A DNA stretch of 64,000 nt. Origin: Spirochaetia bacterium (lineage in GTDB: Bacteria > Spirochaetota > Spirochaetia > G963692905). Both the position numbers and the translations under genes were made by a program. The stretch is taken from positions 6,622 to 70,621 of the forward strand of contig CBDCPJ010000050.1 of NCBI GenBank assembly GCA_965220165.1. Reading direction: 5' to 3'. This document shows, one piece after another, positions 9,163 through 28,822 of the stretch (position 1 is the stretch's first letter; every line of letters starts with the position of its first letter). The notes below the pieces were generated by a model. That model was given only the letters and a program-made list of their open reading frames with translations. It made no database searches and had not been told where the DNA came from.

Positions 9163-12100
9163 TTAACGTTTCTCTTGAGGAGAGCCCTTGACCTGCAAAA
9201 CGGCGCCTCCAAAAGTCAAACCTCCGCCAAATGCTGTTAGACCAATATATTCTCCTGCGGGACGATGGTCCATTATTTCTTGCAAGCATATAGGAATCGT
9301 GCTCGACGATGTGTTGCCATAATTCTTTACATTGCTGTAGACAACTTCCTGATCAACCTTAAGCTGCTGTCTTACGGCATTGATAATGCGCTGATTCGCT
9401 TGATGCGGGATAACTAATCCAAGGTCTCCAATATCGATTTCCGTCTTTTGGCATGCAAGTTGAAGACTCTTAGTCATATACCGCACAGCCTCTCGAAACA
9501 CCGACGGGCCATCCATTCTAATCTTTCTACTGCCGTGCTTTACTACCTGGAGGAGATCGCCATTTTCGCCATTCGCGCCGATTACAGGCCTAAATAACCG
9601 CATGGAGCGGCCGCTTTGCGAATGTTTGCCAATCAACAGAGTCGCGGTCGCCGCATCGCCAAATACAGGAGCGGTAGAGGGGTCGCTTGTATCAAGAAAG
9701 CGCGAAAGCGTTTCGGTGGTAACGACAAGGACATTTCCTCCATTATTATTGATCAACCAATCATAGGCTATTTGAAGAGAGTACAGGTAACCGCTACATG
9801 CCGCATTTACATCATACGCGGCGGCAAGAAACTCGCCCGGTTTTTGATGAAATGCATATTGAATCAGCGCCGCCATCGAAGGGGTATTTTGCATTGGCGT
9901 TTCGGTGGAACATATAATAAGCCCCATCTGCTCTATGGTAAGATTGTTCTTCTCCAATAGCGGGCGCACCGCTTCGATCGCTATAGTAAATGCGTCCTCG
10001 TCGTCGTCCAGCCAATAACGAGAAGCGATGCCGGTTCTTCGAACGATATCTCTGGGCGACCATTTAGCGCACATTTTTGATATCTCCTCGTTATCTATGA
10101 CCCTTTTTCCATGGGAACTTTCTATAGCGACGATCTCAACGCTTATATCGTTGCCGTCGCTGGATCCGATAGATATTTGCGATTCAATATTCGCTTTCTT
10201 TGCGGAAATGCCCTTGATAATTGGAGTTCCTGGGTCCTCTCGAGTAATTGATTTTGCCACCGGCATTTCATCAGCGATTCGCACCAACAGCAACGGCGTT
10301 CCAATTTGGACAAATTCCCCCTCAGGTACTAAAATCTCTTCCAGAACGCCGGAAAATGGCGCGCGAAGATCGACTGAGGCTTTATCGGCCTCCATCTCGG
10401 CGATAACATCGCCCACGGCAATGGTATCCCCTACCTTTACCCGCCATTCGATAACCGTAATCGATTCATCGGAGGGGCTTGAGCCGATCGCCTCAATTAC
10501 CGATAACCCTTCGCGCGTATCATTCTTTCGCTTCCAGCTAATTTCGCCTCCAAGCAGCTCGACTGCCGTTTCTAATACTCGTCGATAGGAGGGCAATACG
10601 TTCAATTGATTGGCAAAATTGCATGGAACATAGGTATCTGATCGGGTTACTCTGCGCGCTTCAATCTTTTTTGACGATTGCTCGCATATAGTAGAGATAA
10701 CTTCGGCGCCCATCCCGGCGCTGTGGTTGTCTTCATGGGCAACAATGAGGCGCCCGCTTCTGTTTACCGCTTTTAATACGCTTTTGGATTCCCATGGCAT
10801 AAGCGAGCGGAGGTCGATAACAGAACTTTCAACATCAAATTCCGCCAAAGTGTCGGCCGCCTTTCGACATAGTTCTACCGTGTTGCCCCATGCAACAAAG
10901 GTTATGTCGTCGCCGTCGCGCAATATTCTCGCCTTCCCGATGGGAATCTTATGCGACGCTATATCTGACGATGTGGTCCGCTGGCGATTATTGAGGCAGT
11001 TTTTTGGATAGAAGAACAGCGTGGGACGTCCCGAACGAAATGCGCTGTTGAGAAGGCCCGCGGCATCTCCGGCGCTGCTTGGCATCATAACATCGATTCC
11101 GGGAGTGTGGACGGCGATCGACTCCATCGCGCTGGCATGAAATGGCCCCAATCCCGGTCGGTAGCCTCCGCATGTTATCATAACGATAACTGGCGCTTGC
11201 CATCCTCCATTTGTTCGCCAATAGAGACTTCCAAGCTCCGAGAATATTTGATTGTAGGCGATGGGTAAAAAATCGGCAAACTGAAGAAAGGCGACAGGAC
11301 GTTTTCCCGCTAGGGCCTGTCCGATAGAGATGCCAACAATGGAGGCCTCGGCGAGCGGCGAATTCATGACACGCGAGCCAAATTCTTTAGAAAGCCCTTT
11401 CGTAATGCCAAATACATCGCCTTTAGGGTCCTCTATGTCCTCTCCAAAAAGAACGACGCGCTCGTCCTCGGCTAGATGATTATGCAAAACCTGGCGAATA
11501 GCTTGAAGCATCGTAAGCCTATCCGATCCATCGTCGTCGTTGCCATGATACTCTTGCGATCTTGGCAAAAGCTCTTTTGCGAGCGGCTTTATAGCGCTAT
11601 GGATCGCTTTTGGTTCGCGGGCGCGTCGAGATCGATCCATCGCCTCTTTGGCTTTGATTTCAATCTCTTGCTCTATTTTGATAAGCTCCTCTTCCGCAAT
11701 GTTGGCGCCAATAAGATCGCGACGCAACGCGGCGACTGGATCGCCCGTATTACTTGATAGCGCTATTTCTTGCTCGCTGCGATAGACCCGCTGGTCGTCC
11801 GCGTTTGTATGATTGGAGAGGCGTTCAACATTAAACAACGCGATAGCGGGGCCGCGATGAGCGCGCATATTGTCCGTTATTCGCTCAAAATGGTCGTACA
11901 CGGAGGTTGGCTTTCGACCGTCGATATTGGCGATCGGGATGCCATAGAATGAATCGGCAAGGCCGGCGGGAGTCGAATAAAAAGTGTTGCCCTCTGTGCG
12001 CGTAGATATGGCGAACGAATTGTTTTGAATGAGGAACAAAACCGGCAAATTGCGTCGAACCGCGTGCCCGATAGCTTCGAGCACTTCGCCCTGTTGCGTC

Positions 12101-12540
12101 ATGCCGTCGCCCAAGGAGCAGAGAACGATAGGTTTATCGGATTGCGTATGGACCGCCTCCGCGACGCCCACCGCCTGCAACGCGCTATTGCCAACTGGGC
12201 CGACCGTGCTGAGTATCTGTAACTCCGGCGCGCTCATGTGGGCATTCATCTGCCTGCCTTTTGAGTGCGACGCATCTTTGTTGAACGCCGCGAGAAAAAA
12301 CGACTCGATGGAGATGCCTCGCGCGAGCATAAGCGCTTTGTCGCGATAGTGACAATGCAACCAATCAGAAGGAGTAAGGAAATGGTCTAAAATGGCAGAC
12401 GCCTCGTGGCCACTTCCCGAAACATGGAAGAATATACCGCCGCTCTCGGCGAGTCGCGTCTCTACGTTATCGATAGATCGTGAAGCTACCATATATCGGT
12501 AGCTTTGGAGGAGTTTTTGCTGTTTTATGTCGTCATTCAT
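9163..12540 (-). CDS. Fusion protein: 2-oxoacid dehydrogenase E1-alpha + E1-beta + lipoyl domain + beta-ketoacyl-ACP synthase III (FabH-like)
   Basis: ThDP motif GDG(144-146)...NN(173-174). E1-beta LFGEDI and NSPLAE. Lipoyl motif EMEADK720A. KAS III triad AAC915SG, PH1046QAN, GN1076TSS. Confidence 0.92.
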   Translation of the reverse strand: MNDDIKQQKLLQSYRYMVASRSIDNVETRLAESGGIFFHVSGSGHEASAILDHFLTPSDWLHCHYRDKALMLARGISIESFFLAAFNKDASHSKGRQMNAHMSAPELQILSTVGPVGNSALQAVGVAEAVHTQSDKPIVLCSLGDGMTQQGEVLEAIGHAVRRNLPVLFLIQNNSFAISTRTEGNTFYSTPAGLADSFYGIPIANIDGRKPTSVYDHFERITDNMRAHRGPAIALFNVERLSNHTNADDQRVYRSEQEIALSSNTGDPVAALRRDLIGANIAEEELIKIEQEIEIKAKEAMDRSRRAREPKAIHSAIKPLAKELLPRSQEYHGNDDDGSDRLTMLQAIRQVLHNHLAEDERVVLFGEDIEDPKGDVFGITKGLSKEFGSRVMNSPLAEASIVGISIGQALAGKRPVAFLQFADFLPIAYNQIFSELGSLYWRTNGGWQAPVIVMITCGGYRPGLGPFHASAMESIAVHTPGIDVMMPSSAGDAAGLLNSAFRSGRPTLFFYPKNCLNNRQRTTSSDIASHKIPIGKARILRDGDDITFVAWGNTVELCRKAADTLAEFDVESSVIDLRSLMPWESKSVLKAVNRSGRLIVAHEDNHSAGMGAEVISTICEQSSKKIEARRVTRSDTYVPCNFANQLNVLPSYRRVLETAVELLGGEISWKRKNDTREGLSVIEAIGSSPSDESITVIEWRVKVGDTIAVGDVIAEMEADKASVDLRAPFSGVLEEILVPEGEFVQIGTPLLLVRIADEMPVAKSITREDPGTPIIKGISAKKANIESQISIGSSDGNDISVEIVAIESSHGKRVIDNEEISKMCAKWSPRDIVRRTGIASRYWLDDDEDAFTIAIEAVRPLLEKNNLTIEQMGLIICSTETPMQNTPSMAALIQYAFHQKPGEFLAAAYDVNAACSGYLYSLQIAYDWLINNNGGNVLVVTTETLSRFLDTSDPSTAPVFGDAATATLLIGKHSQSGRSMRLFRPVIGANGENGDLLQVVKHGSRKIRMDGPSVFREAVRYMTKSLQLACQKTEIDIGDLGLVIPHQANQRIINAVRQQLKVDQEVVYSNVKNYGNTSSSTIPICLQEIMDHRPAGEYIGLTAFGGGLTFGGAVLQVKGSPQEKR

Positions 12541-14079
<1,539 letters not shown>

Positions 14080-14097
14080 CTATCCATATACGAAAAA

Positions 14098-14307
14098 TTG
14101 GGCGTTGCGGGCATGCTATGGGGCGTTTTACGATTACGAATTCGATGCCCGCTGAGGGGGGAGAGGAAGCATGAAAGATCGGCGGCGGGCGGAGCGCGAG
14201 CGGAGCCCGAGCGCTCCGAGCGCGCGAGGAGAGCAGCCGATCGGTGTCTCCGACTGCGAAGTCGGAGACATTCAGGCTGGAACGAGGGGGGAGACTTCCC
14301 CCTCATT
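14098..14307 (+). repeat. Dispersed structured intergenic repeat, copy A
   Basis: TTGGGCGTTGCGGGC (14098), GCCCGCTGAGGGGGG (14147), CGAGGGGGGAGAC (14283), TTCCCCCTCATT (14296). Same motif order as copies B and C. Confidence 0.8.
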
Positions 14308-14347
14308 TTGCTTGTATCTATTGTTCAAATAGTGGTACCATAGTTCC

Positions 14348-15220
14348 ATGGTCGCCCGTTATTCGCCCAAAAATCAGTTGTCGCCGGCAAAGAGGCTTGC
14401 TCGTATCGTAGGATCGCCCTATAGCCCTATCGCGTTGCTGGCGCTGATAATTTTGTTTGCCGCGCCTATCGGAAGGCTTATCCATAACGGAATTGCCGCT
14501 CCACAACAGCTCCATGCGTCGAACTACCTGGCCGATATACGAAACCGCGCGTTGCTTACCGCGGGCGTAATGATTGGACTTGACGCAATCGTCTCTACCA
14601 TCCAAGAGACGGAGATAGGCGTCGAGTTTATTGGCAAGGTATCGGTGCCTCCCGGCGCGCTCCTTGATCCTCTCAACGATCTTCTGGAATTTAGCACCAA
14701 AGTTATGCTGTTGTGCGCCGTTTCGCTAGAGATGCAACGGCTCCTTGTATCAATTGGAAGCCCGTCGGTCTGGAAATGGGGTATTATATTTATAGGAGGC
14801 ATATTGTTGGCGCTCGCCGTCGCGCGATTGGGTCGTCGCAACTGGAAGTGGCCAGAGCGGCCGCCTATTGTTCGATCGCTTTGTCGCGTCGCGTCGTTCG
14901 TCTCGGTCGCGATGATCGCGCTTATCCTCTTTCCGCCCCTTATTCTGGGTTCCATTCCTTTTGTCGCATCGCGTCTTAATGCGGTATATTCCGAATCGAT
15001 GCATGGATTGGAGCGGTATAGCGATCAAGTTGAGGATGCCGACCCTGCGGACATTGTCCGCGATAGCAACCTATTGGAACGTATAGAACGCGATATCGCC
15101 CGTATGCTGGGGCATCTGGTCAATATCATCTTCGTGTTTGCGATGGAGATTGTTATTTTGCCGCTGTTATTTCTTATCGCGGCGTGGGTGATCTGTAAGC
15201 GGTTGCTGGGCGTATCATAG
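14348..15220 (+). CDS. Hypothetical membrane protein
   Basis: 290-aa ORF with several TM-like segments and no recognised motif. Confidence 0.7.
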   Translation: MVARYSPKNQLSPAKRLARIVGSPYSPIALLALIILFAAPIGRLIHNGIAAPQQLHASNYLADIRNRALLTAGVMIGLDAIVSTIQETEIGVEFIGKVSVPPGALLDPLNDLLEFSTKVMLLCAVSLEMQRLLVSIGSPSVWKWGIIFIGGILLALAVARLGRRNWKWPERPPIVRSLCRVASFVSVAMIALILFPPLILGSIPFVASRLNAVYSESMHGLERYSDQVEDADPADIVRDSNLLERIERDIARMLGHLVNIIFVFAMEIVILPLLFLIAAWVICKRLLGVS

Positions 15221-15353
15221 ATTATCGACGCAATTTCCTATTGATTCCCTCACTATACTATACTATACTATATTCATGGCTCGGCAATTGAGAATGCGAC
15301 GGGTATAGTGGCAAAAGAATATCATTTGACGCTGTTTAGGCGGATCGTCTAGC

Positions 15354-16127
15354 ATGTTTTTTCATCAACTGCGTCGCTATGTGGGTAGCGTGTTGGCCGT
15401 TATCGCATCGGTCGCGGCGACTGTCGCTGTTATCTTTATCAATTGGAGCATTCCAAATTTGCATAGGGTGGCCGACAATGCGCGCGCTATAATTAATTCC
15501 ACAGACGCGTTGCCCGATTTAGACGATATGACCAGCGCCCTATTATCTCCGATAAGCGTGTTATTATCCGTACTCATTTTTGTGGCGATCATCTCGCTCG
15601 CGGTTATCGCTATGCGCGGCGACGCCTCAAAACGCCTCTGGATAGGGGGGCTAGTCGGGGCGCTCGCTGTTTGCGGAGGGATATCGGGATGGCCGATCGC
15701 CACTCCATTTATGATTGTGGCATTGCTGGGCATTTCAATGGCAATGCGCGGGTGCGACGCGATACGGTTTCGCATTCAATCTGGACGGAGCGCGCCGGCG
15801 ACGCAACCCGTTCAGCCGATGGCGCAACCCGTTCAGCCGATGGCGCAACCCGCTCAGCCGATGGCGCAACCCGCTCAGCCGATGGCGCAACCCGCTCAGC
15901 CGATGGCGCAACCCGCTCAGCCGATGGCGCAACCCGCTCAGCCGGCGACGCAACCCGCTCAGCCGATGGCGCAACCCGCTCAGCCGATGGCGCAGGCGGC
16001 CGAGCAACCCGCCGAGCAAGCGGCGCCGACAGGCAGCCCGGAAGAGCGCCCAATAGATGCGGCTTCTTCCCGTAAAGTCGGGGTTGCGACATGGTTTAAA
16101 AACGCATGGAAAAAATTTTTTGGATAA
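15354..16127 (+). CDS. Hypothetical membrane protein with Pro/Gln/Ala heptad repeat tail
   Basis: About four TM segments, then (PMAQPAQ)n and a basic C-terminal end. Start position uncertain. Confidence 0.75.
   Translation: MFFHQLRRYVGSVLAVIASVAATVAVIFINWSIPNLHRVADNARAIINSTDALPDLDDMTSALLSPISVLLSVLIFVAIISLAVIAMRGDASKRLWIGGLVGALAVCGGISGWPIATPFMIVALLGISMAMRGCDAIRFRIQSGRSAPATQPVQPMAQPVQPMAQPAQPMAQPAQPMAQPAQPMAQPAQPMAQPAQPATQPAQPMAQPAQPMAQAAEQPAEQAAPTGSPEERPIDAASSRKVGVATWFKNAWKKFFG
15794..15994 (+). repeat. 21-bp in-frame tandem repeat, about 9.6 copies
   Basis: Unit gccgatggcgcaacccgctca. Units start at 15794+21k, with PAT variants at copies 1 and 8. Confidence 0.97.
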
Positions 16128-16142
16128 AGGAATAACTAACTT

Positions 16143-16742
16143 ATGAATAGAGCCCTATTTTTCACAGCCTGTCGTTTTGCGGCATCGCCCGTGATGTTCT
16201 TCCTCTACATGCTCCCCAACTGGGCAAATGTCGACAGCCCAAATACGGTCGTCGTTCGAATAGCTCTTCTCTGGGTGGTATTTGCCGTTGCAGAGATAAG
16301 CGACGCGCTTGACGGAATTGTGGCAAGGACACAAAATATTGTGACCGATTTTGGCAAATTGGCCGACCCTCTGGCCGATATTATGTTTAATCTTACCCTT
16401 CTTTTCTGCCTCGCTCAATCAAAAATCATACCAAATTGGTGCTTTATTATCATTTTTCAGAGAGAGATTTTAGTTACGTTGCTGCGGATGCGAGGGCTGC
16501 TCTTTGGAGTCGCAATCCCGGCGCGCTGGCCGGGCAAGTGGAAATCGGTATCCTATATCATCACTATTATAGTGGGACTATTCGCATATTCGGCAACCTA
16601 TGCAAACATCGAGCAAGATACAATCGACTTCGCGATACGCTCCGCGACATGGTTAGCATTTATTTCAGTACTCTGGTCGCTCTTTTCGTTTTGCGAACAC
16701 CTTATACGATCGCGGAATATCAAAGAGTCCCAATCTTCGTAG
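16143..16742 (+). CDS. pgsA: CDP-alcohol phosphatidyltransferase (PgsA-like)
   Basis: DALDGIVAR...TDFGKLADPLAD motif, GKWKS. Confidence 0.85.
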   Translation: MNRALFFTACRFAASPVMFFLYMLPNWANVDSPNTVVVRIALLWVVFAVAEISDALDGIVARTQNIVTDFGKLADPLADIMFNLTLLFCLAQSKIIPNWCFIIIFQREILVTLLRMRGLLFGVAIPARWPGKWKSVSYIITIIVGLFAYSATYANIEQDTIDFAIRSATWLAFISVLWSLFSFCEHLIRSRNIKESQSS

Positions 16743-16751
16743 CGTAGATAG

Positions 16752-17816
16752 ATGAAGCATCCTATACCTGTCGGCATACTGGGCGCGACCGGGGCCGTGG
16801 GACAAAAGTTTATATCGCTGTTGGCGCGCCACGAATGGTTCTCTGTAGCCGAATTGGCCGCTTCGGATCGATCGGCGGGAAAGCGATATATCGATCGAGC
16901 CCATTGGTTGCAATCGACTCCCATTCCTCCAGCCGTGGAGGCTATGAATATAGCGTTGGCCGGAAGCCCGCTTAAAAGCAAGATACTCTTTTCGGGTCTC
17001 GATAGCGGCGTCGCATTTGATGTTGAGCGTTATTACGCGAAACAAGGCTGTATTGTGATCAGCAATGCCAGCAGCTATCGCATGGATCCAAGCGTTCCGC
17101 TCATTATACCCGAAATAAACGACGGCCATCTTCAGCTTATCGACCGCCAAGTAGATTGGCCGGGAGCAATTATCACCAATTCAAACTGCTCGACGATGTT
17201 CCTCGCGATGGTACTGGCGCCGTTACACAAGAAATTTGGCGTCGAAGCGGCGCACGTTACCACAATGCAGGCGATATCGGGCGCCGGGTATCCCGGGACG
17301 CCAGCGTTGGATATCATATCCAATGTTATTCCGTATATATCTGGAGAAGAGGAAAAGTTGGAAAACGAAACCCGCAAAATTCTCGGAACGCTCGTAGATA
17401 ATCGGGTAACGCCGGCGCCGATCGCGATAAGCGCGCAGTGCAATCGCGTTCCTGTCTATGACGGTCATACCGAAACGCTGTCGATACGTTTTCGCCCTCC
17501 CGCGCCGAGCCTCGAAGAGATCGTTGAGCATCTTTCCGGCTTTCGAGGATATCCGCAAGAGGCAAAGCTCCCCTCGGCTCCAAAAAATCCTATCGTTGTG
17601 TTTCGCGAGAATAGTCGGCCTCAGCCGCGACGAGATGTCTGGAAGGAGCAAGGAATGGCGGCAATGGTTGGACGCGTGCGGAAATGCCCGGTATTTGACG
17701 CGAAAATGGTTATACTGGGACACAACACCATTCGCGGAGCGGCCGGCGCGGCTATTCTCAATGCCGAGATGTTATTCAAAAAAGGCCTGTTGGATAAATA
17801 TATCAATCGACAATAA
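16752..17816 (+). CDS. asd: Aspartate-semialdehyde dehydrogenase
   Basis: LGATGAVGQ, NSNCST, SGAGYPG, CNRVPVYDGH, GHNTIRGAAG. Confidence 0.96.
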   Translation: MKHPIPVGILGATGAVGQKFISLLARHEWFSVAELAASDRSAGKRYIDRAHWLQSTPIPPAVEAMNIALAGSPLKSKILFSGLDSGVAFDVERYYAKQGCIVISNASSYRMDPSVPLIIPEINDGHLQLIDRQVDWPGAIITNSNCSTMFLAMVLAPLHKKFGVEAAHVTTMQAISGAGYPGTPALDIISNVIPYISGEEEKLENETRKILGTLVDNRVTPAPIAISAQCNRVPVYDGHTETLSIRFRPPAPSLEEIVEHLSGFRGYPQEAKLPSAPKNPIVVFRENSRPQPRRDVWKEQGMAAMVGRVRKCPVFDAKMVILGHNTIRGAAGAAILNAEMLFKKGLLDKYINRQ

Positions 17817-17857
17817 CTTTTTGCCCCCGATTCCATCGTAGGATCGTTTTTGCATAG

Positions 17858-18961
17858 TTGCGCGCAAGTTCTTTCGCGATTGCGCCGATAGTAACGATAA
17901 TGGCTATTGTCGCTCTTATTGCGGGCTTTGTCGTCAATCTCGCGCTTATCCCGCTTATTATTCTTCTCGCAAAGCATTTTAATTGGTATGACAAGCGAGG
18001 GACGCGTAAAATCCATACCGGCAACATTCCTCGATTGGGAGGCATAGCCATCGCCCCTATCGCTGTCGGGGGCTTGCTGGTTATCAATCGCCTCTTCGCG
18101 CTCGACCTTCCCTTTATAGCGTTCTGGCCGGTCGGCGCGGCGCTTGCTATAATCTACATAATTGGCGTAATCGACGATTCGATCACGCTATCTCCCCATA
18201 TTAAACTAATCGGGCAGTTTGTCGCCGGGGTTCTGGTGATCGCCGCGCATAATAGCTTCCCAAGCCTCATGCGTCCATCGTTGTTGGCTATGCGCGCCGT
18301 TATGTTTATCGCTATTCTTCTGTGGATCGCGTTGCTCACCAACGCGATCAATCTTGTCGACGGCATGGACGGCTTAGCCGGAGGCATCTCTGTTATCGCA
18401 ATGGCGTCTATCGCTCTGTTGCGCGCTCGCGAAGATAACAACAGCATCGCCATAATCGTCTGCATGCTTATCGCCGGCGCGTTATGCGCGTTTCTTCTAT
18501 TCAACATGCCTCCCGCCAAAATTTTTCTCGGCGATGGAGGAAGCCTCGTTTTGGGCTTCTGCTTCGCGGTGCTCCCGCTACTCTCTCGGCATGGGCTCAT
18601 CGACAACATCATTCAAACGGCGACAATCCTATGCATTCCCTTAACCGATGTCGCCAAAGCGATATTTCGCAGGGCTCTGCATAGAACCGCCTTTTACCAG
18701 CCCGATCGAGAACATATTCACCATAACCTTATGGATATTGGCTGGACAAACTGGCAAATATGTTTTGGCGTCTACGGTATGACGCTCTTAGCGTCGGGCT
18801 CGGTCTGGCTTGGTATACAGTTTCCCGCGATGCGATTCTTCTTGGCGGGCGCGGTATGGGCAATCGCGATAACAGCGACGATGGCGATATCGCATCGCGC
18901 TCGCGCGATGCGCCAATCGTCTCGTCGAAGCGACAATAACCACCCATCTAATCCGCTATAG
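17858..18961 (+). CDS. wecA: Undecaprenyl-phosphate GlcNAc-1-phosphate transferase (WecA/MraY family)
   Basis: HTGNIPRLGG, GVIDD, NAINLVDGMDGLA, FNMPPAKIFLGDGGS, DREHIHH. Confidence 0.85.
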   Translation: MRASSFAIAPIVTIMAIVALIAGFVVNLALIPLIILLAKHFNWYDKRGTRKIHTGNIPRLGGIAIAPIAVGGLLVINRLFALDLPFIAFWPVGAALAIIYIIGVIDDSITLSPHIKLIGQFVAGVLVIAAHNSFPSLMRPSLLAMRAVMFIAILLWIALLTNAINLVDGMDGLAGGISVIAMASIALLRAREDNNSIAIIVCMLIAGALCAFLLFNMPPAKIFLGDGGSLVLGFCFAVLPLLSRHGLIDNIIQTATILCIPLTDVAKAIFRRALHRTAFYQPDREHIHHNLMDIGWTNWQICFGVYGMTLLASGSVWLGIQFPAMRFFLAGAVWAIAITATMAISHRARAMRQSSRRSDNNHPSNPL

Positions 18962-19000
18962 TTATTTATCTCTTCCAAAAATTCCGCCGATATAATCGGT

Positions 19001-20128
19001 ATGAACGTTGGAAGATGGATCGTTTTATCGCTATGCTTTGTCGCTGCGACATCGTGGGGCGTAGAACCAAGCGACCTACGCGTCTCCGCGGATGACGTTA
19101 TTATCGATCAAAGCATTGAGGGAGGTTTTTTGCTTCGTATTCGTAAAAAGCCGGCGATAGAATCGATATTGATTACCGAATCGAGCAAAGACCCGAATAT
19201 GCAGAGAGCGGCATACGGACTTCGCAACCCCGAGTTCCATCCTCTCAACGGCAACGAACAGCGCATATTGAACGGAGAATTTATCGAATCCGCCTACAAT
19301 CTCTATTTTCTTCTCGACTCCACCCCTCAGCCAGATCCGGTATTTGGGCAGGCATTTCATATTTTTATCCCCTATGTTGTAGAATATGGCTACGCGTGGT
19401 CGCGCAATGGCTCATTGCTTGTGCATGACGGCGCATTTCTTAACATTCGCTCATTTGAACGCAAATTCTCCGATTATACCGGCGCATTTCTTGACAATCC
19501 CTTTTTAGTGAGAGTGATTCAAGAAGAGATCGCGTCTCGACCGCCAACCGGCAACTATCTTGAGGACGCGGTGACGAGCTTTTCCAATATAGCCGAAGCA
19601 AGCGACGGGACTATCTACTACTCCGACGGCGAGGAGGATGTGATCGATAAAATTGAGCAAATCCTGCAGAACAACCGAGGACAGACAATTGATCTCGTCT
19701 TTGTGATAGACACAACAAGCAGCATGCGCAACGACATTCAATTTATTCAACGGCGACTGACAGGACTGCTAGAGAGCCACCTGTCGTCGTTGCCAAGTTT
19801 GCAAGTAGGATTGCTCTATTACCGCGACTACGGCGACAGTTATCTTACCAAAAATGTGGGCTTTCAGCGCGATCTCGCGTCAATGCAACGAACCTTGAAC
19901 GCAATAACGGTCGCCGGCGGACGCGATGTTCCCGAAGCGGTCTACGAAGCGCTCTACACAACGCTTAACGAATTCGAATGGCGCGAAGAAGCGGCGTCGC
20001 GCAATATTGTGCTGATCGGCGACGCGCCGCCGCACCAGCTTCCTAGGGGCGATATAGATAAAGAAAAGGTATTTTCTCTAGCAAACGAAAAGGCAGCGAC
20101 GGTCGATGTAATTATTATTCCCCAATAG
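19001..20128 (+). CDS. Secreted protein with C-terminal vWA domain
   Basis: Signal-peptide-like N-terminus, MIDAS-like DTTSSM, GGRDVPEAVYEAL, IGDAPPH. Confidence 0.82.
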   Translation: MNVGRWIVLSLCFVAATSWGVEPSDLRVSADDVIIDQSIEGGFLLRIRKKPAIESILITESSKDPNMQRAAYGLRNPEFHPLNGNEQRILNGEFIESAYNLYFLLDSTPQPDPVFGQAFHIFIPYVVEYGYAWSRNGSLLVHDGAFLNIRSFERKFSDYTGAFLDNPFLVRVIQEEIASRPPTGNYLEDAVTSFSNIAEASDGTIYYSDGEEDVIDKIEQILQNNRGQTIDLVFVIDTTSSMRNDIQFIQRRLTGLLESHLSSLPSLQVGLLYYRDYGDSYLTKNVGFQRDLASMQRTLNAITVAGGRDVPEAVYEALYTTLNEFEWREEAASRNIVLIGDAPPHQLPRGDIDKEKVFSLANEKAATVDVIIIPQ

Positions 20129-20525
20129 GAATGGTAGGTTGCTCTTTTTCGTCAATCAGCGCGATCATACGCTCGCTCAGCGCTTTAATCCACAATGGAA
20201 GATTATTCTGGGTTGAATAGCGTTCGACAATCGCCTGAAATTTCTCGCGAGCCTCGGCAAACATCTCCTGTTTGTAGGAGATAAAAGCCAGCTCGTATTC
20301 GGCGCTCAAAACAGCTTCTTCGTTGTCGGTAAATCGTTCTATCACCGCCTGGTAATAGTTTTTGGCGATATCGAGCTCATTGCTGGAATAGGCCTCTTGC
20401 CCTTGCTGAAAGAGCAATTCAAGCGACAAGTCCTCCGGCGGATCAGAAGGAACCGTTACGCACGCGCTCAACGCCCATAGAGACACCAGCGATATAACGC
20501 CTATCGCAACGCCGCATTTTACCAT
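20115..20525 (-). CDS. Lipoprotein with TPR-like (BamD-like) helices
   Basis: Lipobox-like LSAC, followed by TPR-like LFQQGQEAY...AKNYYQAVIERF. Confidence 0.7.
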   Translation of the reverse strand: MVKCGVAIGVISLVSLWALSACVTVPSDPPEDLSLELLFQQGQEAYSSNELDIAKNYYQAVIERFTDNEEAVLSAEYELAFISYKQEMFAEAREKFQAIVERYSTQNNLPLWIKALSERMIALIDEKEQPTIPIGE

Positions 20526-20571
20526 ACAAAATTACTTTGGCTATGATCGCCCAATTTGTCAAGCGTCATTA

Positions 20572-21378
20572 TTATCGGCTACGCTCTCCATTTGGCGACG
20601 CGATGGGCTCTCGAAACGGGGTAATACTCGTCGCGCGAAAATCATCGCCCACCTCCAGCACTACCCCCTGCGCCTCTAGGTCTTGCCAACATTCCTTTGA
20701 ACGTTCAGGTATCTGACGGATAAATTTCCGTATCTCCACCTCGGGATCAAATCCTATAACGCCAAACTGGCTTCCGGTGCGCCCCGCATCGCATATCACC
20801 GCCGTTCCGTTGGACAAAATTGTGGCGTCGGCAGTCTGCGTTCGCTGCCCCGAACCGATAACGGCGGAAACTTTGCCGTTTGCCAAATAGCCCATCGTCA
20901 ATTTATCCGCGGTAGAGCGCCCATGAAAATCGACAATAGTAATTTGGGATCGCCGCGTGATTCGCGCGATATTTTCATCAAAGAAGGCAAACGGATTATT
21001 GACGTAATTTCGCTCATGCCCCGCTTGCCCCATAAGATTGATAACCGTAATATTGATATCGCCCACCATAATATGGCGCCATCCGCGACCCGGCGCATGC
21101 GCCGGATGATTAGCTGGACGAATGATATAGCCCACACTGTTTATATATGGAGGCATATCGACTTTATTGAATATGCAATCTCCGCTGGTTAGAACATCTA
21201 CGCCAAGCTTGCGAAGGTAAATGGCATGATTTTTGCCTATTCCATAGCCGCCCGTCGCTCCGTCGGCATTCGCGATAACGCAATCGACCTCTAACTTTTC
21301 TTTGAGCGATTTAAGGAGATTTTTAACACAATAGACGCCGGGACTGCCAACCATCTCGGCAATATACAATATTCTCAC
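20572..21378 (-). CDS. ymdB: YmdB-family metallophosphoesterase with altered metal-site motifs
   Basis: MRILYIAEMVG.PG, IRPANHP...PGRGW, DFH, QTAD, DAGRTG. Confidence 0.85.
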   Translation of the reverse strand: MRILYIAEMVGSPGVYCVKNLLKSLKEKLEVDCVIANADGATGGYGIGKNHAIYLRKLGVDVLTSGDCIFNKVDMPPYINSVGYIIRPANHPAHAPGRGWRHIMVGDINITVINLMGQAGHERNYVNNPFAFFDENIARITRRSQITIVDFHGRSTADKLTMGYLANGKVSAVIGSGQRTQTADATILSNGTAVICDAGRTGSQFGVIGFDPEVEIRKFIRQIPERSKECWQDLEAQGVVLEVGDDFRATSITPFREPIASPNGERSR

Positions 21379-21514
21379 TACTTGATTATACTATATTGCA
21401 ATAATATGAATAAGTATATACTATTAATCCATAATTGATTTACTGTTCTTATGAATACTGTCGATTGCTTTCATCGACGATTTCGCGGCAATGAATAACC
21501 TCCGCTAAACGCTG

Positions 21515-22777
21515 TTGATTACCATTACAATTGCCGCGGTCGTTCTCTGCATCATCCTCTCAGCATTTTTTTCCGGTTCAGAGACCGCGTATACTTCGCT
21601 GTCTATAGCGCAAATTGAGACATTGCGAAGCGCGAAGAACCCGCAGTCTCGTCTTGCCGCAAAAATGGCCAATAATCTTAAAAATCTTCTCACGACAATA
21701 CTTATTGGCAATAATTTGGTTAATATTATCGCCGCGGTGCTGGCCAGCAACCTTACTATCGAGCTATTCGGCAGTCAATTATTGGGCGCCACCACCGGTA
21801 TCATCACTCTCTTTATTCTTCTATTTGGCGAAGTAATTCCTAAGCAATTCGCGGTGATCTACAATGAGCGGTGGGCGATCGTTTCGGCTCCTATATTGAC
21901 TGTCGTCTATGCCGCCCTCTATCCTATTAGTTGGATCATAGGCCTCTTTTCCGGCGCTATAGGAAAGATCGATCGACGAGAACCCTCGGAGCAGATTACT
22001 CGCAAAGGCTTGGTATTTCTTATGAAATACGCCGCCTCTATCGGCGTGGTGGACACATTCAAATCTCGTTGGGTAACCAATCTATTTCGTTTCGGAGACA
22101 CAAAAGTATCGTCTATTATGACGCATCGCACACAACTATTTAGCTTGGACAGCGATCGAAAAGTGGAAGAGGCGATATCCGAGATGAGCAGGGCGGGATT
22201 TGCCCGCATTCCCGTCTATAAGGAGCATGCCGAACAGATCACCGGTATCGTATTGTTAAAAGACGCGCTCAACGCGTTAACCCAAAACGAAGGGCAACAT
22301 ACGCTTGCGGAATTGGCGATATTCCCTCTTTTTGTATCCGAAACATGGCCAATAGAAAGGGTATGGAGCAAATTGCGCCATGCCAAAGTGCAGGCCGCTA
22401 TCGTTCGCGACGAATATGGAGGCATATCGGGACTGGTAACGCTAGAGGATATCATTGAAGAGATAATGGGCGAGATCTATGACGAGCGCGAAGGAACCGA
22501 ACAATCAAAAATAGTTTCGTTAGGACATGGTCGCTATCAAATTACCACCGATATTTCGCTCGTCGATTTTAACGATAAATTTGATGTCGAAATTCCTATC
22601 GACCGCGGAATGAATACATTAGGCGGGTATCTTGTCTCTTGTTTTGGATCGATACCGAGCCTCAATGAAAAATTGGACACTCCATACGGAGAATTTGTCG
22701 TTACCGCCCTCGATAAAAACAGAATTGTTCATGCTATTTACGCGCCAACCCTCGATGATATCGAACAAAATAAATAG
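21515..22777 (+). CDS. Hemolysin/CNNM family protein (DUF21-CBS-CorC)
   Basis: SAFFSGSETAYTS, TILIGNNLVNI, GEVIPK, IMTHR, DEYGGISGLVTLEDIIEEIMGEI. Confidence 0.92.
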   Translation: MITITIAAVVLCIILSAFFSGSETAYTSLSIAQIETLRSAKNPQSRLAAKMANNLKNLLTTILIGNNLVNIIAAVLASNLTIELFGSQLLGATTGIITLFILLFGEVIPKQFAVIYNERWAIVSAPILTVVYAALYPISWIIGLFSGAIGKIDRREPSEQITRKGLVFLMKYAASIGVVDTFKSRWVTNLFRFGDTKVSSIMTHRTQLFSLDSDRKVEEAISEMSRAGFARIPVYKEHAEQITGIVLLKDALNALTQNEGQHTLAELAIFPLFVSETWPIERVWSKLRHAKVQAAIVRDEYGGISGLVTLEDIIEEIMGEIYDEREGTEQSKIVSLGHGRYQITTDISLVDFNDKFDVEIPIDRGMNTLGGYLVSCFGSIPSLNEKLDTPYGEFVVTALDKNRIVHAIYAPTLDDIEQNK

Positions 22778-22809
22778 AATACCGGGAGCGCAAACGCGAG
22801 CGAGCGAGC

Positions 22810-25071
22810 ATGTCTAATACAATGGAAATATCGCAAAACGACGGGTATAGACCCGCCCAACGCAAGAAGGCTCGGAAAACCTATCTCCTTTTTATGGTAT
22901 TCAACGCCGCCTCATTTTGGTTGCTCAGCAACAATATCGTAACTCTATTCGCGATTCGTCTTAATGCCACCACAAGCTATATAGGATTGCTATCGGCGAT
23001 GAGCTACATTTCACTCTTCGCCATAATTATCGGTCGCCATATCGCCAAGCAGACGCCTGTCTTGCGGCTATTTCACCGCGCATGGTTATTGAGATATCTA
23101 TCGATGATCATAATATTGCCGGCGCCGCTATTGATAAACGCCAATCTTCGCTTGCTCGCCCTGTTTCTTATGGGCGCGGCGGTATTCGGCTTCCATATTT
23201 TTCGGGGAATAGGCCTTGTATCAAATAGCCCGCTCATCGGAGAACTCTCGACAGGAAAAGATCGCGGCGCCTATTTAGCGAGCATTCAAATTATTGGCTC
23301 CTCGGCGGCAGTTGTCGCGGGACTGACAATCGCCCTTGTATTGGGCCGTACAGCCCCGTTGATTCGCTATAGCATATGTTTTGGCATCGGCATCGCAAGC
23401 GGTTTAATCGCTACAAAAATACTCGCTCAAATACCGCCCCTACCAAACAACTACAATATAGAAGAGACTCGCTCGACATTTTCGATCGCCGACGCATTTC
23501 GCAACAAAAACTTTGCAAAATTCATTATCAGCTTATTTATCTTCGGGGCGCTATCGGGAGCGCTCCGCACCTTCGCAGTGGTCTATGTTCGCGAAGTGTA
23601 CGCGCAGAGCGACCTATCCATAGCGCTCTACACCGTCGCCGGAAGCATCGGCATGTTGATAATAGGAAAACTTTCCGGCGCATTGATCGATCGAATCGGC
23701 GCAAAACCAATCTATTCCTTCTACGCCACTCTATTATCGATCTCGGCATACGCAGTTCTCTTCGCCCCCCAATTCCACAACAGAATCCTTATCACCATAT
23801 TTTGCGGCCTCATATTTCTAATGATCAACACCGCGTTGGCCGGCGGAGAATATTCGGCTCAGATCTATTTTTTTGGCTCGATCTCCAACCGCGAACGGCT
23901 TAATCTGGGAACTCTCTACTTTCTAACGCTCGGACTGGGAGGAAGCTCGGGCCTATTGATCGGCGGAATGATCATCGACATCCTGCTCCAAGACGGCAGG
24001 CTACCGCCCAGTTTGCTCTTTCGCATCTTTTTTGGATGCATCGCGCTATTGCTCACCGTTTGCGTCTCGCTTATCTTGCGCCTTGAACGATTGGGGGCGA
24101 CCTCGATAAAAAACGCGCTGTCGATTATTCTCTCTCCGCGCAATCTCCGTTCGGTGGTGCTTATGAACAAATTGGAACAATCAACCTCTATCGTGGACGA
24201 AAAAAAAATCATCGGCGACGCCGCCAACATAAAGACGCCGATTATCTCCGACGACCTCTCTTCTCGCCTTCAATCGCCAAGTTTGGAAATTCGAAGCGCG
24301 ACGCTCCATGCCATCGAGAATCTTCCGCTTACCGAAAACTCGGAGGCTATGATCGTCAAAGAAATCGAAACGCGGGAGTATACCACCGCCTATATCGCGG
24401 CGCGTATCGCCGGAAGACGCGACATAAAAAGGGCGACCCCCGTGTTGCGACAGCAATTGTCCAGCGGCGACTATATACTTGTGGCTAAATCGATGGTGGC
24501 GCTCGCCCGATTGCGCGACGAAGAATCGATCGGCAGGATTGAAACAATGCTCGCGCAACCCGCCAATCCATTTGTCTTAACTCACGGGGTCGCGGCGCTG
24601 CGCATTTTTCGAAATAGCTCCTCGCTCCCGCTATTATTTTCGATATTGCGCAAGGCAAAAAGCCCCGTCAACATTGTAGTAGATGTATTGCTGGCGATTG
24701 GCGCGGTGATGGGAATGGACGAATCGTTCTATCCTCTCCTTCGCGATCTTCCCAACCCAGATACCGATTCGTGGAATATATTGTCAGAAGAGCTCCTCGA
24801 AAACGCAACCCGCTACCCCGAAAAAATCGGCGCAATGTTAAAATCACTGGCAAACGCGCCCGAAAAACAGCGATCGACAGTCGCCATCGCGACGCTGGAA
24901 ACATTGCAACAATCGCTCTCTGACCTCCCCATCTTTGAACTTGCGATACTATCGCTTAAAGACGATTCCCTACAATATCCCGAACTCTCCTTTTTTATGA
25001 TCTACCTCATCCTTTATTTAACAAAAATGCTGGCAAGCGAACAAGGGCGCCTCAAAAAAACGAAAAAATAG
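22810..25071 (+). CDS. MFS transporter fused to a HEAT-repeat-like domain
   Basis: About 12 TM segments (GALIDRIGAK), then helical repeats (AARIAG, MVALARL, GVAALRIF). Confidence 0.75.
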   Translation: MSNTMEISQNDGYRPAQRKKARKTYLLFMVFNAASFWLLSNNIVTLFAIRLNATTSYIGLLSAMSYISLFAIIIGRHIAKQTPVLRLFHRAWLLRYLSMIIILPAPLLINANLRLLALFLMGAAVFGFHIFRGIGLVSNSPLIGELSTGKDRGAYLASIQIIGSSAAVVAGLTIALVLGRTAPLIRYSICFGIGIASGLIATKILAQIPPLPNNYNIEETRSTFSIADAFRNKNFAKFIISLFIFGALSGALRTFAVVYVREVYAQSDLSIALYTVAGSIGMLIIGKLSGALIDRIGAKPIYSFYATLLSISAYAVLFAPQFHNRILITIFCGLIFLMINTALAGGEYSAQIYFFGSISNRERLNLGTLYFLTLGLGGSSGLLIGGMIIDILLQDGRLPPSLLFRIFFGCIALLLTVCVSLILRLERLGATSIKNALSIILSPRNLRSVVLMNKLEQSTSIVDEKKIIGDAANIKTPIISDDLSSRLQSPSLEIRSATLHAIENLPLTENSEAMIVKEIETREYTTAYIAARIAGRRDIKRATPVLRQQLSSGDYILVAKSMVALARLRDEESIGRIETMLAQPANPFVLTHGVAALRIFRNSSSLPLLFSILRKAKSPVNIVVDVLLAIGAVMGMDESFYPLLRDLPNPDTDSWNILSEELLENATRYPEKIGAMLKSLANAPEKQRSTVAIATLETLQQSLSDLPIFELAILSLKDDSLQYPELSFFMIYLILYLTKMLASEQGRLKKTKK

Positions 25072-25080: not shown

Positions 25081-25267
25081 AATGGGGGGGGAATCGCGCG
25101 GGAGAATAAAAACGCGACCGCTATCGACGACGGCGCTCTTCCGAGCCAATTGCCCGAACGCGTTGTCTCCCCCCTCGCTCCATAGCGCGCGGCACTATTG
25201 CGCTACCCCCCTCTGCGGGCAACGACGCAACCTCGAAAATCGCCCCAAAATCGCCCGCAACGCCCAA
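25081..25267 (-). repeat. Dispersed structured intergenic repeat, copy B (inverted)
   Basis: Reverse complements of the shared motifs at 25253-25267, 25206-25220, 25165-25177 and ~25081-25093. Confidence 0.8.
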
Positions 25268-28584: not shown

Positions 28585-28822
28585 TTGGGCGTTGCGGGCC
28601 TTGCGCTGCGCGATTTCCGTGTAGGGGACAGGCGCCCGCAGAGGGGGGGAGCGTAATAGCGCAGGGGCGCGCCCAGTGGAGCGCGAGCGAAACTGGATAA
28701 GCGCGCCCCGGTCAGCGCTATGAAGCGAGGGGGGAGACCCCATACGTGGGGCAATCATAGAACGCTCGCGCCGCTTTTCGATCTCTGTCGCGTTAATTGC
28801 GACGGAAGGTTTCCCCCTCTTT
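28585..28822 (+). repeat. Dispersed structured intergenic repeat, copy C
   Basis: TTGGGCGTTGCGGGC (28585), GCCCGCAGAGGGGGGG (28634), CGAGGGGGGAGAC (28726), TTCCCCCTCTTT (28811), with nested inverted repeats. Confidence 0.8.

What the first reader, a model, noticed from the sequence alone, without database searches (positions are those of the whole stretch)
14098..14307. Dispersed intergenic repeat family: three diverged copies within 15 kb, in both orientations
Seen: copies A (14098-14307, +), B (25081-25267, -) and C (28585-28822, +) share four ordered motifs: TTGGGCGTTGCGGGC, GCCCGCWGAGGGGGG, CGAGGGGGGAGAC and TTCCCCCYCWTT. The spacers differ in length and sequence. GCGGGC of motif 1 pairs with GCCCGC of motif 2 in all three. 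Copy A carries an extra perfect 11-bp hairpin TGTCTCCGACT-GCGA-AGTCGGAGACA (14245-14270). There is no ORF, terminal inverted repeat or target duplication that I can support. Inference: a non-autonomous mobile element (REP/MITE-like) or an unannotated structured RNA family.
Basis: partly seen in the sequence, partly recalled or inferred. Interest (0 to 1): 0.7.

Follow-up and report, generated by a model that had tools for sequence, protein, structure and literature searches.

The report
Modular hairpin repeat family in spirochaetes
The three sequences are real copies of a small, non-coding, hairpin-forming repeat that is scattered in dozens of copies between the genes of this uncultured spirochaete and, in a shorter form, in gut Treponema; it is a new family of a familiar kind of bacterial "junk-or-regulator" repeat, not a new kind of system.

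Summary
Observation confirmed. A (14098-14307 +), B (25081-25267 -) and C (28585-28822 +) share four ordered motifs and one fold: a long 5' hairpin P1 with an invariant GCGGGC/GCCCGC foot, G-box 1 (GAGGGGGG), a variable hairpin module P2, G-box 2 (CGAGGGGGGAGAC) and a C-run that pairs with a G-box.

- Nothing in Rfam matches.
- In DNA assemblies of the same organism, contigs break at the copies, and the core has 30-50 times single-copy word depth. This suggests dozens of copies.
- Earlier notes called the family lineage-specific. It is not: compact 105-145 nt homologues with the same motif order lie in Treponema metagenome contigs, mostly just after a stop codon and co-oriented with the upstream gene.
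- The Treponema flgF-flgG spacer is filled in some species and empty (16-21 nt) in others.
- P1 and P2 modules are shuffled between copies.
- One copy is apparently split by an IS30-family element.
- Rumen metatranscriptome contigs carry the core inside longer transcripts.
- There are no terminal inverted repeats, no target duplication, and no transposase in the window.

Best reading (0.6): a mosaic, non-autonomous intergenic repeat of the REP/BIME/BOX/SPRITE kind, co-transcribed, with an unknown mobilising enzyme. A selected structured-RNA role is not excluded.

The parts
14098..14307 (+). Copy A, whole element. It lies in the divergent spacer between ilvC (12541-14043, -) and an unknown 290-aa gene (14348-15220, +), and is co-oriented with the downstream gene.
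14107..14152 (+). A: hairpin P1. The foot GCGGGC (14107-14112) pairs with GCCCGC (14147-14152); the interior is variable.
14154..14161 (+). A: G-box 1 (GAGGGGGG)
14162..14282 (+). A: variable P2 module. It has a long hairpin GATCGGC...GCCGATC with the apex loop GGAGCGCGAGCGGA (14191-14204), plus the extra perfect 11-bp hairpin at 14245-14270.
14283..14307 (+). A: G-box 2 (CGAGGGGGGAGAC) directly followed by the C-run TTCCCCCTCATT. Together they form hairpin P3, which was the best terminator-like site in the scan of 13800-29100.
25081..25267 (-). Copy B, whole element. It lies between the MFS-HEAT gene (22810-25071, +) and the next + strand gene (25391-26095 as called in L014), antisense to both. 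Motif positions: motif 1 at 25253-25267, motif 2 at 25206-25220, G-box 2 at 25165-25177, C-run at 25081-25093.
25084..25091 (.). B: homopolymer (C8 on the element strand, G8 on +). It is four bases longer in one other sample of the same organism (run X3).
28585..28822 (+). Copy C, whole element. It lies between hisF (27766-28536, +) and tkt (28920-30911, +), co-oriented with both. It starts 48 nt after the hisF stop.
28631..28739 (+). C: high-copy core (end of P1, G-box 1, P2 with apex loop GGAGCGCGAGCGAA at 28678-28691, G-box 2). Summed word depth is 30-50 times the flanks in Logan contigs of the same organism. The P1 interior and the 3' tail of C are at single-copy depth.
28810..28822 (+). 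C: C-run TTTCCCCCTCTTT. In the minimum-energy fold it pairs with G-box 1.

Best explanation
A, B and C belong to a modular, hairpin-rich, non-coding intergenic repeat family.

Layout, 5' to 3':
- P1, a long hairpin whose foot (GGCGTTGCGGGC ... GCCCGCAGAG) is nearly invariant and whose interior is free to vary.
- G-box 1 (GAGGGGG).
- P2, an exchangeable cassette of one or two hairpins on a conserved base.
- G-box 2 (CGAGGGGGAGAC).
- A C-run (TTCCCCCT) that pairs with a G-box to give a GC-rich, terminator-like hairpin, P3.

Shown here: the family has many copies in this genome. Homologous compact copies exist in gut Treponema. An orthologous spacer is filled or empty in Treponema species with about 90% identical FlgG. 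Modules are recombined between copies. Treponema copies sit inside longer RNA contigs.

Inferred: the element spreads as DNA, by a trans-acting enzyme that recognises the invariant hairpin foot and G-boxes and/or by recombination between copies. It persists where it does least harm, mainly just after stop codons. It is co-transcribed with its neighbours, so its stable hairpins can act as a 3'-end barrier or weak terminator. The mobilising enzyme is unknown.
For: - Exact shared motifs in the same order in three intergenic sites of the window.
- Contigs of four independent runs of the same organism break inside the copies. Many different flanks hang on the core. Summed word depth over 28631-28739 is 31-49 times single copy.
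- Earlier notes report the same family in two other pieces of this genome.
- Seven metagenome contigs carry compact copies with the same four motifs in the same order. The model found further diverged copies (L006b, L010b, L015). FlgG places L003 in Treponema.
- The flgF-flgG spacer is 128 nt with the element in L003 and 179 nt with a variant (different P1) in L015/L016. It is 16-21 nt and empty in L020, L021 and L022.
- Mosaicism: L006a and L010a have the same P1 through G-box 1 but different P2. L009 and L010a share a P2, and so do L013 and L006a, on different P1 interiors.
- Other genomic copies differ from C by swapped P2 apices (joints).
- An IS30-family transposase gene lies between G-box 2 and the C-run in L006, so it appears to split that copy.
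- Helices are maintained: P2 stems differ completely in sequence yet stay paired, and a GNA/GNA loop alternates with CCG/CGG pairs in one register. 94% of cells are paired against 50-61% for slid controls, with 5 doubly changed pairs.
- RNA contigs of 150-945 nt from rumen metatranscriptomes contain the core internally.
- Literature: spirochaete genomes (Leptospira, Sediminispirochaeta, Treponema) are unusually rich in small non-autonomous repeats (PMC11602168).
Against: - No terminal inverted repeats and no clear target duplication. No transposase or recombinase among about 50 ORFs of the window. So no transposition mechanism is shown.
- No presence/absence difference at A, B or C among the available samples, which are near-identical strains.
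- Long invariant strings are shared by two distant spirochaete lineages. A conserved apex loop sits on different stems in A and C. Eight or nine of 12 copies are co-oriented with the upstream gene. These features would also fit selection for an RNA or protein-binding function.
- The filled/empty evidence comes from Treponema, not from the window's organism. The flgF-flgG spacer also collects unrelated palindromic inserts, so it may simply be a permissive site.
- Word depth is not a true copy number.
Confidence: 0.6

Rival explanations
1. A selected structured-RNA family, such as a portable 3'-UTR or operon-spacer module, or small RNAs. Its conserved single-stranded G-boxes, hairpin foot and apex loop would be bound by a protein or by the C-run. 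Its copies would be kept for a function such as 3'-end protection, processing or translational coupling.
For: - About 40 invariant nucleotides are shared by two distant spirochaete lineages while helix interiors vary freely.
- Compensatory changes occur in P1, P2 and P3.
- The apex loop GGAGCGCGAGCGRA is conserved on unrelated closing stems in A and C, and it is the depth peak of the family.
- Most compact copies start 0-90 nt after a stop codon, co-oriented with the gene.
- The core is present in metatranscriptome contigs at summed depths comparable to flgG.
Against: - No Rfam match.
- B is antisense to both neighbours, and A sits in a divergent promoter region. Earlier notes report reverse and divergent placements too.
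- The site is empty in close Treponema relatives.
- Neighbouring genes are functionally unrelated.
- RNA contigs run through the element, so no discrete RNA is seen.
- The better folding of the sense strand is explained by its G-richness.
- No RNA data exist for the window's organism.
Confidence: 0.2
2. A family of intrinsic transcription terminators with decorated upstream hairpins. The copies would look alike through local duplication and convergence on a G-run/C-run hairpin, not through mobility.
For: P3 of copy A is the best terminator-like site in the region. Several Treponema copies end in CCCCC followed by a T-rich tail and lie between convergent genes (L009, L010a, L013, L006b). SPRITE elements of pneumococcus set a precedent (PMC3049150).
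Against: - Copies lie inside operons between co-transcribed genes (flgF-flgG, thrA and an ilvN-like gene), where a strong terminator would be harmful.
- T tails are weak or absent in L003, L013 and B.
- Convergence cannot explain identical 12-15-nt strings in P1 and the G-boxes across loci and lineages.
- RNA contigs extend past the element.
Confidence: 0.08
3. DNA-level protein-binding or recombination sites. The three GAGGGGG boxes (two direct, one inverted) and the hairpin foot would be bound by a nucleoid protein or recombinase, and would mark boundaries of exchangeable gene blocks.
For: Three copies of one heptamer, two direct and one inverted, stand in a fixed arrangement. In L010 two copies in inverted orientation flank an 8.7-kb restriction-modification block next to a resolvase gene. 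In L006 a copy follows a methylase/MTaX1 pair. An IS appears to have targeted P3.
Against: In the window, the block between A and B consists of ordinary housekeeping genes with ordinary composition. Single copies in short operon spacers have no partner site. No recombinase is in the window. Compensatory stem changes point to a folded single strand rather than duplex recognition.
Confidence: 0.07

Closest known systems
REP / BIME elements of Proteobacteria (REPINs mobilised by RAYT Y1 transposases; PMC3333891, PMC2817692, PMC3116915)
   Same: GC-rich, imperfectly palindromic and intergenic, with many copies. Often found after gene ends and co-transcribed. Assembled into mosaics from a few module types. 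Lack terminal inverted repeats and target duplications. Serve as insertion targets for IS elements. Hairpin foot and flanking bases are conserved, as expected of a substrate of a hairpin-recognising enzyme.
   Different: Much longer (190-240 nt here, 105-145 nt in Treponema). Built of three different hairpins plus G-boxes, not one 20-40 nt palindrome or an inverted pair. No consistent GTAG/CGTC tag. No RAYT found (none in the window; the genome could not be searched). Different phylum.
BOX elements of Streptococcus pneumoniae (boxA-boxB(n)-boxC; PMC3049150)
   Same: Modular layout with conserved 5' and 3' modules around a variable middle. Extensive secondary structure. Transcribed with neighbours. 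Slow gain and loss between relatives. Considered parasitic but able to affect co-transcribed genes.
   Different: No sequence similarity. The middle module here is a set of unrelated hairpin cassettes on a conserved base, not tandem boxB units. G-box/C-run pairing has no BOX counterpart.
SPRITE (pneumococcal Rho-independent-terminator-like element; PMC3049150, PMC3184786)
   Same: Dispersed repeat whose 3' part looks like an intrinsic terminator. Biased towards gene 3' ends and convergent gene pairs.
   Different: This family carries a large conserved structured part upstream of the terminator-like hairpin. It also sits inside operons and in divergent spacers.
MITEs such as Correia/NEMIS, RUP, ERIC (PMC3184786; census in PMC11602168, where Spirochaetes are MITE-rich)
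   Same: Small, non-autonomous, intergenic, multi-copy. Can fold into long hairpins and change expression of neighbours.
   Different: Defining terminal inverted repeats and target-site duplications are absent.
PATEs: gene-less derivatives of IS200/IS605 insertion sequences
   Same: No terminal inverted repeats and no duplication. Subterminal hairpins. Strand-specific single-strand logic would fit the conserved hairpin foot.
   Different: The two end hairpins (P1, P3) are unlike each other. No conserved tetra- or pentanucleotide abuts the left end. No TnpA or TnpB was seen.

Membership tests
MITE (e.g. Correia, RUP, ERIC) | Terminal inverted repeats | tested here: not met
   The first 35 nt against the reverse complement of the last 35 nt scores 4-7, against shuffle means of 4.7-5.5, in six copies.
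MITE (e.g. Correia, RUP, ERIC) | Target-site duplication flanking the insert | tested here: inconclusive
   Filled (L003, L015) and empty (L020-L022) flgF-flgG spacers were compared. The flanks are too diverged to place the ends to the base. GGAG occurs on both sides in L003 but not in L015.
MITE (e.g. Correia, RUP, ERIC) | Many copies and presence/absence between relatives | tested here: met
   Core at 30-50 times single-copy word depth. The Treponema flgF-flgG site is filled or empty.
REP / REPIN | Short (20-40 nt) palindrome with a conserved GTAG or CGTC tag | tested here: not met
   The elements are 105-240 nt with three unlike hairpins. The bases left of the element are GTAG in L003 and L005 only; elsewhere they are TTAG, ATAG, TCAG or AAAG, and the window copies have no tag.
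REP / REPIN | Cognate RAYT (Y1/HUH transposase) gene in the genome, flanked by copies | not testable with these tools
There is none among the window's ORFs.
BOX-type modular repeat | Conserved terminal modules around a variable middle module | tested here: met
   The P1 foot with G-box 1, and G-box 2 with the C-run, are conserved. P2 varies from 22 to 122 nt and is swapped between copies. This is resemblance in architecture only; no sequence homology is claimed.
IS200/IS605-derived PATE | Similar subterminal hairpins at both ends, and a fixed target tetra- or pentanucleotide at the left end | tested here: not met
   The P1 foot GCGGGC/GCCCGC and P3 GGGGGA/UCCCCC are unlike each other. The left flanks differ.
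Any Rfam 15 family (including ribozymes, riboswitches, HEARO/omega RNAs; I recall that TD-1/TD-2 of Treponema denticola are in Rfam, not checked here) | Covariance-model match | tested here: not met
   No hit at gathering score on the window. No hit with E <= 1 on seven Treponema loci. Only three chance-level hits, outside the copies, in 13900-29000.
Intrinsic terminator | GC-rich hairpin followed by a U tract at a gene end | tested here: inconclusive
   Met by A, L005 and L006b. The tail is weak or missing in B, L003 and L013. No 3'-end mapping is available.

The most novel reading that the evidence does not exclude
The family could be an old structured-RNA module found across Spirochaetota, not a parasite. 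It would be a three-helix RNA in which two paralogous, Shine-Dalgarno-like G-boxes compete for one C-run. A conserved purine-rich apex loop (GGAGCGCGAGCGRA) and GNA/GNA internal loops would be bound by a conserved protein. Placed just after stop codons, the module would set mRNA 3' ends, processing or translational coupling for dozens of unrelated operons. Its spread would be secondary.
Probability: 0.18. Interest if true: 0.7.

Novelty: new variant of a known kind. Interest (0 to 1): 0.45.

Why it matters
Small dispersed repeats break assemblies, seed rearrangements, attract insertion sequences and alter the fate of the mRNAs they ride on. For spirochaetes, which are reported to be unusually rich in such repeats, almost none have been characterised.

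This family is useful for three reasons. First, it is shared by two distant spirochaete lineages, so its invariant hairpin foot, G-boxes and apex loop point to a conserved recognition partner that can be sought. Second, gut and rumen Treponema, which are abundant in public metatranscriptomes and partly cultivable, carry a compact version that can be tested. Third, its exchangeable modules give a natural experiment on what is needed for spread and what is needed for folding. It also explains why assemblies of this organism fragment at these sites.

Tried and rejected
Searches that found nothing:
- Rfam at gathering and at permissive thresholds gave no family.
- The phage and plasmid collections and IMG/VR gave nothing relevant.
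- A literature search for the motifs as strings gave only chance hits.

Ideas rejected:
- CsrA-sponge idea: GGA is not enriched over shuffles.
- Small ORF starting in G-box 2 (MERGGR/MKRGGR): an ATG is present only in B and C, absent in A and in all Treponema copies, and the lengths differ.
- Terminal inverted repeats: absent.
- Riboswitch-like terminator/antiterminator switch: both G-boxes pair with the same C-run, so either pairing leaves a terminator-like hairpin.
- Anti-Shine-Dalgarno mimicry of the C-run tail (CCCCCUCCUUA): present in only 2-4 of 12 copies.
- G-quadruplex: four G tracts of three or more are not conserved in the compact copies.
- The Chromatiales MAG hit (L001) and L002, L004, L007, L011 and L012 have only the hairpin part of the pattern and were treated as chance.

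Tests that could not be done:
- RNA evidence for the window's organism: the one RNA-labelled run holds none of it, and runs X1, X3, X4 and X6 behave as DNA.
- Empty-site comparison for the window's own sites: HisF relatives are at most 74% identical.
- Walking beyond the window with the look-up of encoding contigs failed because the edge ORFs I chose are not on record as called.
Copy number, strand bias round the chromosome and a partner transposase could therefore not be determined.

A limitation of my own making: my single genome-contig scan required GGGCGTTGCGGGC. Most Treponema copies have AGGCGTTGCGGGC, so that scan says nothing about reference Treponema genomes.

Full report
**1. Observation**

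The three stretches were read directly.
- TTGGGCGTTGCGGGC is exact at 14098-14112 (+), 25253-25267 (-) and 28585-28599 (+). It occurs nowhere else in the window even with two mismatches. Chance expectation is 0.26, and 0 of 100 shuffles reached 3.
- CGAGGGGGGAGAC is exact in all three.
- GCCCGCWGAGGGGGG is present in all three.
- The fourth motif fits A and C. In B it is TTCCCCCCCCATT, one C too many for the written consensus.
- The extra 11-bp hairpin of A is at 14245-14270.
- All three copies are intergenic:
  - A lies between ilvC (-) and an unknown 290-aa gene (+).
  - B lies between an MFS-HEAT gene and the next + strand gene, antisense to both.
  - C lies between hisF and tkt, co-oriented with both.
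- A covariance model and a scan for G/C runs found no fourth copy in the 64 kb.

**2. Anatomy**

Single-sequence folds and comparison with relatives give one layout:
- P1, a long hairpin with the foot GCGGGC/GCCCGC, preceded by GGCGTT.
- G-box 1 (GAGGGGGG).
- P2, a variable module: 29 nt in B, 77 in C, 122 in A.
- G-box 2 (CGAGGGGGGAGAC).
- A C-run. In A it follows G-box 2 directly, giving a terminator-like hairpin, P3, which was the best such site in the scan of 13800-29100. In B and C it lies 60-80 nt further on and pairs with G-box 1 in the minimum-energy fold.

The base of P2 keeps one register in both lineages. It has two G-C/C-G pairs, then either a symmetric purine loop (GNA opposite GNA) or three Watson-Crick pairs (CCG/CGG, CGG/CCG), then paired positions again. 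L005 has a double change in the second pair.

A and C carry the same 14-nt apex loop (GGAGCGCGAGCGRA) on unrelated closing stems. It coincides with the depth peak of the family.

**3. Copy number in this genome**

- The runs behave as DNA: depth is even, and the labels point to host-associated samples.
- Their contigs break inside A, B and C, and many different loose ends hang on the repeat.
- With copy C laid at 85% likeness, 56 contigs of run X1 and 33 of X3 match the core 28631-28739.
- Summed word depth rises from 10 to 504 in X1 and from 6 to 189 in X3. The P1 interior and the 3' tail of C stay at single-copy depth.
- Joints show other genomic copies with a B-like short P2 or other apex inserts.
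- Depth is not a copy number, but dozens of copies is the plain reading.
- Earlier notes report three copies in each of two other pieces of this genome.

**4. The family is not lineage-specific**

A pattern joining motifs 1 and 2 (GCGTTGCGGGC, 20-50 nt, GCCCGCNGAGGGG) was scanned over the metagenome contigs and hit 12 loci.
- Seven loci (L003, L005, L006, L008, L009, L010, L013) also carry motif 3. All but L006, whose copy is interrupted, carry motif 4 in the right place, although the pattern did not ask for either. They form a compact 105-145 nt version.
- The other five loci, and the single genome-contig hit in a Chromatiales MAG, have only the hairpin. I treat them as chance.
- A covariance model built from six compact copies finds them at 81-144 bits. 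It also finds the window copies' P1 at 19-24 bits, and further diverged copies: L006b, L010b, and L015/L016.
- FlgG of L003 is 80-94% identical to proteins named Treponema sp..
- The window's HisF is at most 74% identical to anything else; the named hits are Spirochaetales, Marispirochaeta and Sediminispirochaetaceae.
- So two distant spirochaete lineages share about 40 invariant nucleotides in the same order, while helix interiors differ.

**5. Context of the compact copies**

| Copy | Position |
|---|---|
| L005, L009 | The element's own TAG is the stop codon of the upstream ORF |
| L013 | Starts right after the TGA |
| L003 | About 9 nt after the stop |
| L006a | About 15 nt after the stop |
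| L010a | 87 nt after the stop |

All of these are co-oriented with the upstream gene. The downstream gene is co-oriented or convergent.

The neighbours are unrelated in function: flgF/flgG; aspartokinase-homoserine dehydrogenase followed by an ACT-domain gene (ilvN-like by my reading of its N-terminus); an FGGY kinase; a response regulator; restriction-modification genes.

Counting the window, 8 or 9 of 12 copies are co-oriented with the upstream gene. Among spacers between co-directional genes the count is 6 of 7, or 5 of 6 if the orthologous L003 and L015 sites are counted once. That is not significant. B is antisense to both of its neighbours, A and L010b stand at the 5' ends of genes, and earlier notes describe reverse and divergent placements elsewhere in this genome.

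**6. Gain and loss**

The flgF-flgG spacer was fetched from Treponema with FlgG 87-93% identical to that of L003.

| Loci | Spacer | Content |
|---|---|---|
| L003 | 128 nt | The element |
| L015/L016 | 179 nt | Family member with a different P1 (UAGGGGUA...UACCCCUAGG); G-box 1, P2, G-box 2 and C-run retained |
| L020, L021, L022 | 16-21 nt | Empty: stop codon, ribosome-binding site, ATG |
| L017-L019, L023-L025 | 119-125 nt | Unrelated palindromic inserts |

(Alignments.)

RNA contigs of relatives also join flgF to flgG without the element (joints). So the element is an insertion or deletion at this site, not an ancestral part of the operon. The flanks are too diverged to fix the ends or a duplication.

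**7. Mosaicism and IS targeting**

- L006a and L010a, from one sample, are the same from the 5' end through G-box 1 but have different P2 cassettes.
- L009 and L010a share a P2, and so do L013 and L006a, on different P1 interiors.
- In L006 an IS30-family transposase gene (rve plus HTH_38) lies between G-box 2 and the C-run. GAGGGGGAG stands on both sides. This recalls the IS elements that target REP and BIME.
- In L010 two copies in inverted orientation flank an 8.7-kb block (Dcm methylase, NgoFVII-like, Z1-domain genes) next to a resolvase gene.

**8. Structure tests**

On the model-fitted alignment of Treponema copies:
- 94% of cells pair, against 50-61% when partners are slid.
- Five pairs changed on both sides, with 0 of 500 shuffles reaching this.

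Caveats: the alignment is fitted to the model, and two rows are antisense hits of the palindromic P1.

P3 keeps its stem while its loop varies (GACU, UUCU, GUCU, AACU, GGCU). L009 has G-C changed to A-U and L008 has a G-U pair.

The sense strand folds better than the antisense in 11 of 11 copies, but G-richness alone explains that. A folded single strand is therefore maintained. Whether it is RNA or DNA is not decided.

**9. RNA**

No RNA run holds the window's organism.

For the Treponema form, four rumen or sheep-gut metatranscriptomes each have 4-33 contigs carrying the core.
- Summed word depth is 150-560 over P3 in three of the runs (13 in X11), and 17-226 over P2 and G-box 1.
- The element lies inside contigs of 150-945 nt, for example at 802-878 of a 945-nt contig.
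- It is therefore co-transcribed with its flanks. No discrete small RNA is seen.
- Contigs carry no strand, and DNA carry-over cannot be excluded.
- The loose ends show that other P1 types (UAGGGGC...GCCCCUAGG) are commoner there than the GCGTTGCGGGC type.

**10. What it is not**

- No Rfam family matches.
- There are no terminal inverted repeats.
- There is no conserved left-flank tag.
- No transposase or recombinase is among about 50 ORFs of the window, which is ordinary core chromosome: ftsK, ilvC, asd, hisHF, tkt, rpoN, hprK, pntAB, topA, leuA, acn.
- GGA is not enriched.
- The short ORF starting in G-box 2 is not conserved.

**11. Interpretation**

The best reading (0.6) is a mosaic, non-autonomous intergenic repeat family of the REP/BIME/BOX/SPRITE kind.
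- Shown: it is dispersed and has many copies, is gained and lost, has shuffled modules, appears to be targeted by an IS, and is co-transcribed.
- Inferred: its stable hairpins act at most as a 3'-end barrier or weak terminator.
- Unknown: the mobilising enzyme. The invariant hairpin foot with conserved flanks is what a hairpin-recognising (HUH-type) enzyme or a host protein would need, but no such gene could be sought.

The main rival (0.2) is a selected structured-RNA module. The deep conservation of unpaired segments and of the apex loop keeps it alive. Pure terminator (0.08) and DNA-site (0.07) readings are weaker.

**12. Novelty**

This is a new family, with an unusual three-hairpin, two-G-box, one-C-run layout, of a known kind of element.

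- the Treponema homologues;
- the filled and empty site;
- the copy-number estimate;
- module shuffling across genomes;
- evidence of transcription.

Noticed in passing
window 25084-25091: The homopolymer at the 3' end of copy B (G8 on the + strand) carries four extra G in the contigs of run X3, which comes from a sample labelled as a different host organism. So tract length varies between strains.
   Followed up: partly
window 9163-12540 (-): A single 1125-aa ORF fuses 2-oxoacid dehydrogenase E1 alpha and beta parts (E1_dh, Transket_pyr, Transketolase_C), a lipoyl domain and a KAS III (FabH-like) condensing enzyme. It abuts ilvC. This is an unusual fusion that could feed branched-chain starter units straight into fatty-acid synthesis.
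   Followed up: no
window 12541-14043 (-): The ketol-acid reductoisomerase is the long form (500 aa, with the C-terminal domain matched in two stretches), unlike the short form typical of most bacteria.
   Followed up: no
window 22810-25071 (+): A 753-aa protein joins an MFS transporter domain to a C-terminal HEAT-repeat region.
   Followed up: no
window 48037-51124 (-): Two adjacent, overlapping genes of the 2-isopropylmalate/citramalate/homocitrate synthase type (HMGL-like plus LeuA_dimer).
   Followed up: no
L006 11140-12378: An IS30-family transposase gene (rve plus HTH_38) lies between G-box 2 and the C-run of a Treponema copy, with GAGGGGGAG on both sides of the insert. The IS ends and the duplication were not resolved.
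   Followed up: partly
L010 2271-2409 (-) and 11098-11220 (+): Two family members in inverted orientation bracket an 8.7-kb restriction-modification or defence block (Dcm methylase, NgoFVII-like endonuclease domain, Z1-domain helicase-like protein, two unknown proteins). A serine resolvase gene lies just outside. L006 likewise has Dcm plus MTaX1 directly upstream of a copy.
   Followed up: partly
L017 9882-10000; L023 4330-4454: The Treponema flgF-flgG spacer also holds unrelated palindromic inserts of 119-125 nt, for example GTTATAAAAAGTAC...GTACTTTTTTATAAC in L023. This short operon spacer therefore collects hairpin elements of several families.
   Followed up: partly
window 25268-25330 (-) and 28537-28584 (+): Upstream of motif 1, B and C share a further short similarity (GACGATAGAGACATCG and GGCGATAGGGACATGCG) at different distances. 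The repeat may extend 5' in some copies, or this may be chance.
   Followed up: no
window 25396-25425 (-): The best sigma-70-like match of the region (TTGACA, 18 nt, TAGTAT) lies on B's own strand about 130 nt upstream of B, inside the start of the + strand gene. It could drive an antisense transcript through B. No RNA data are available.
   Followed up: no
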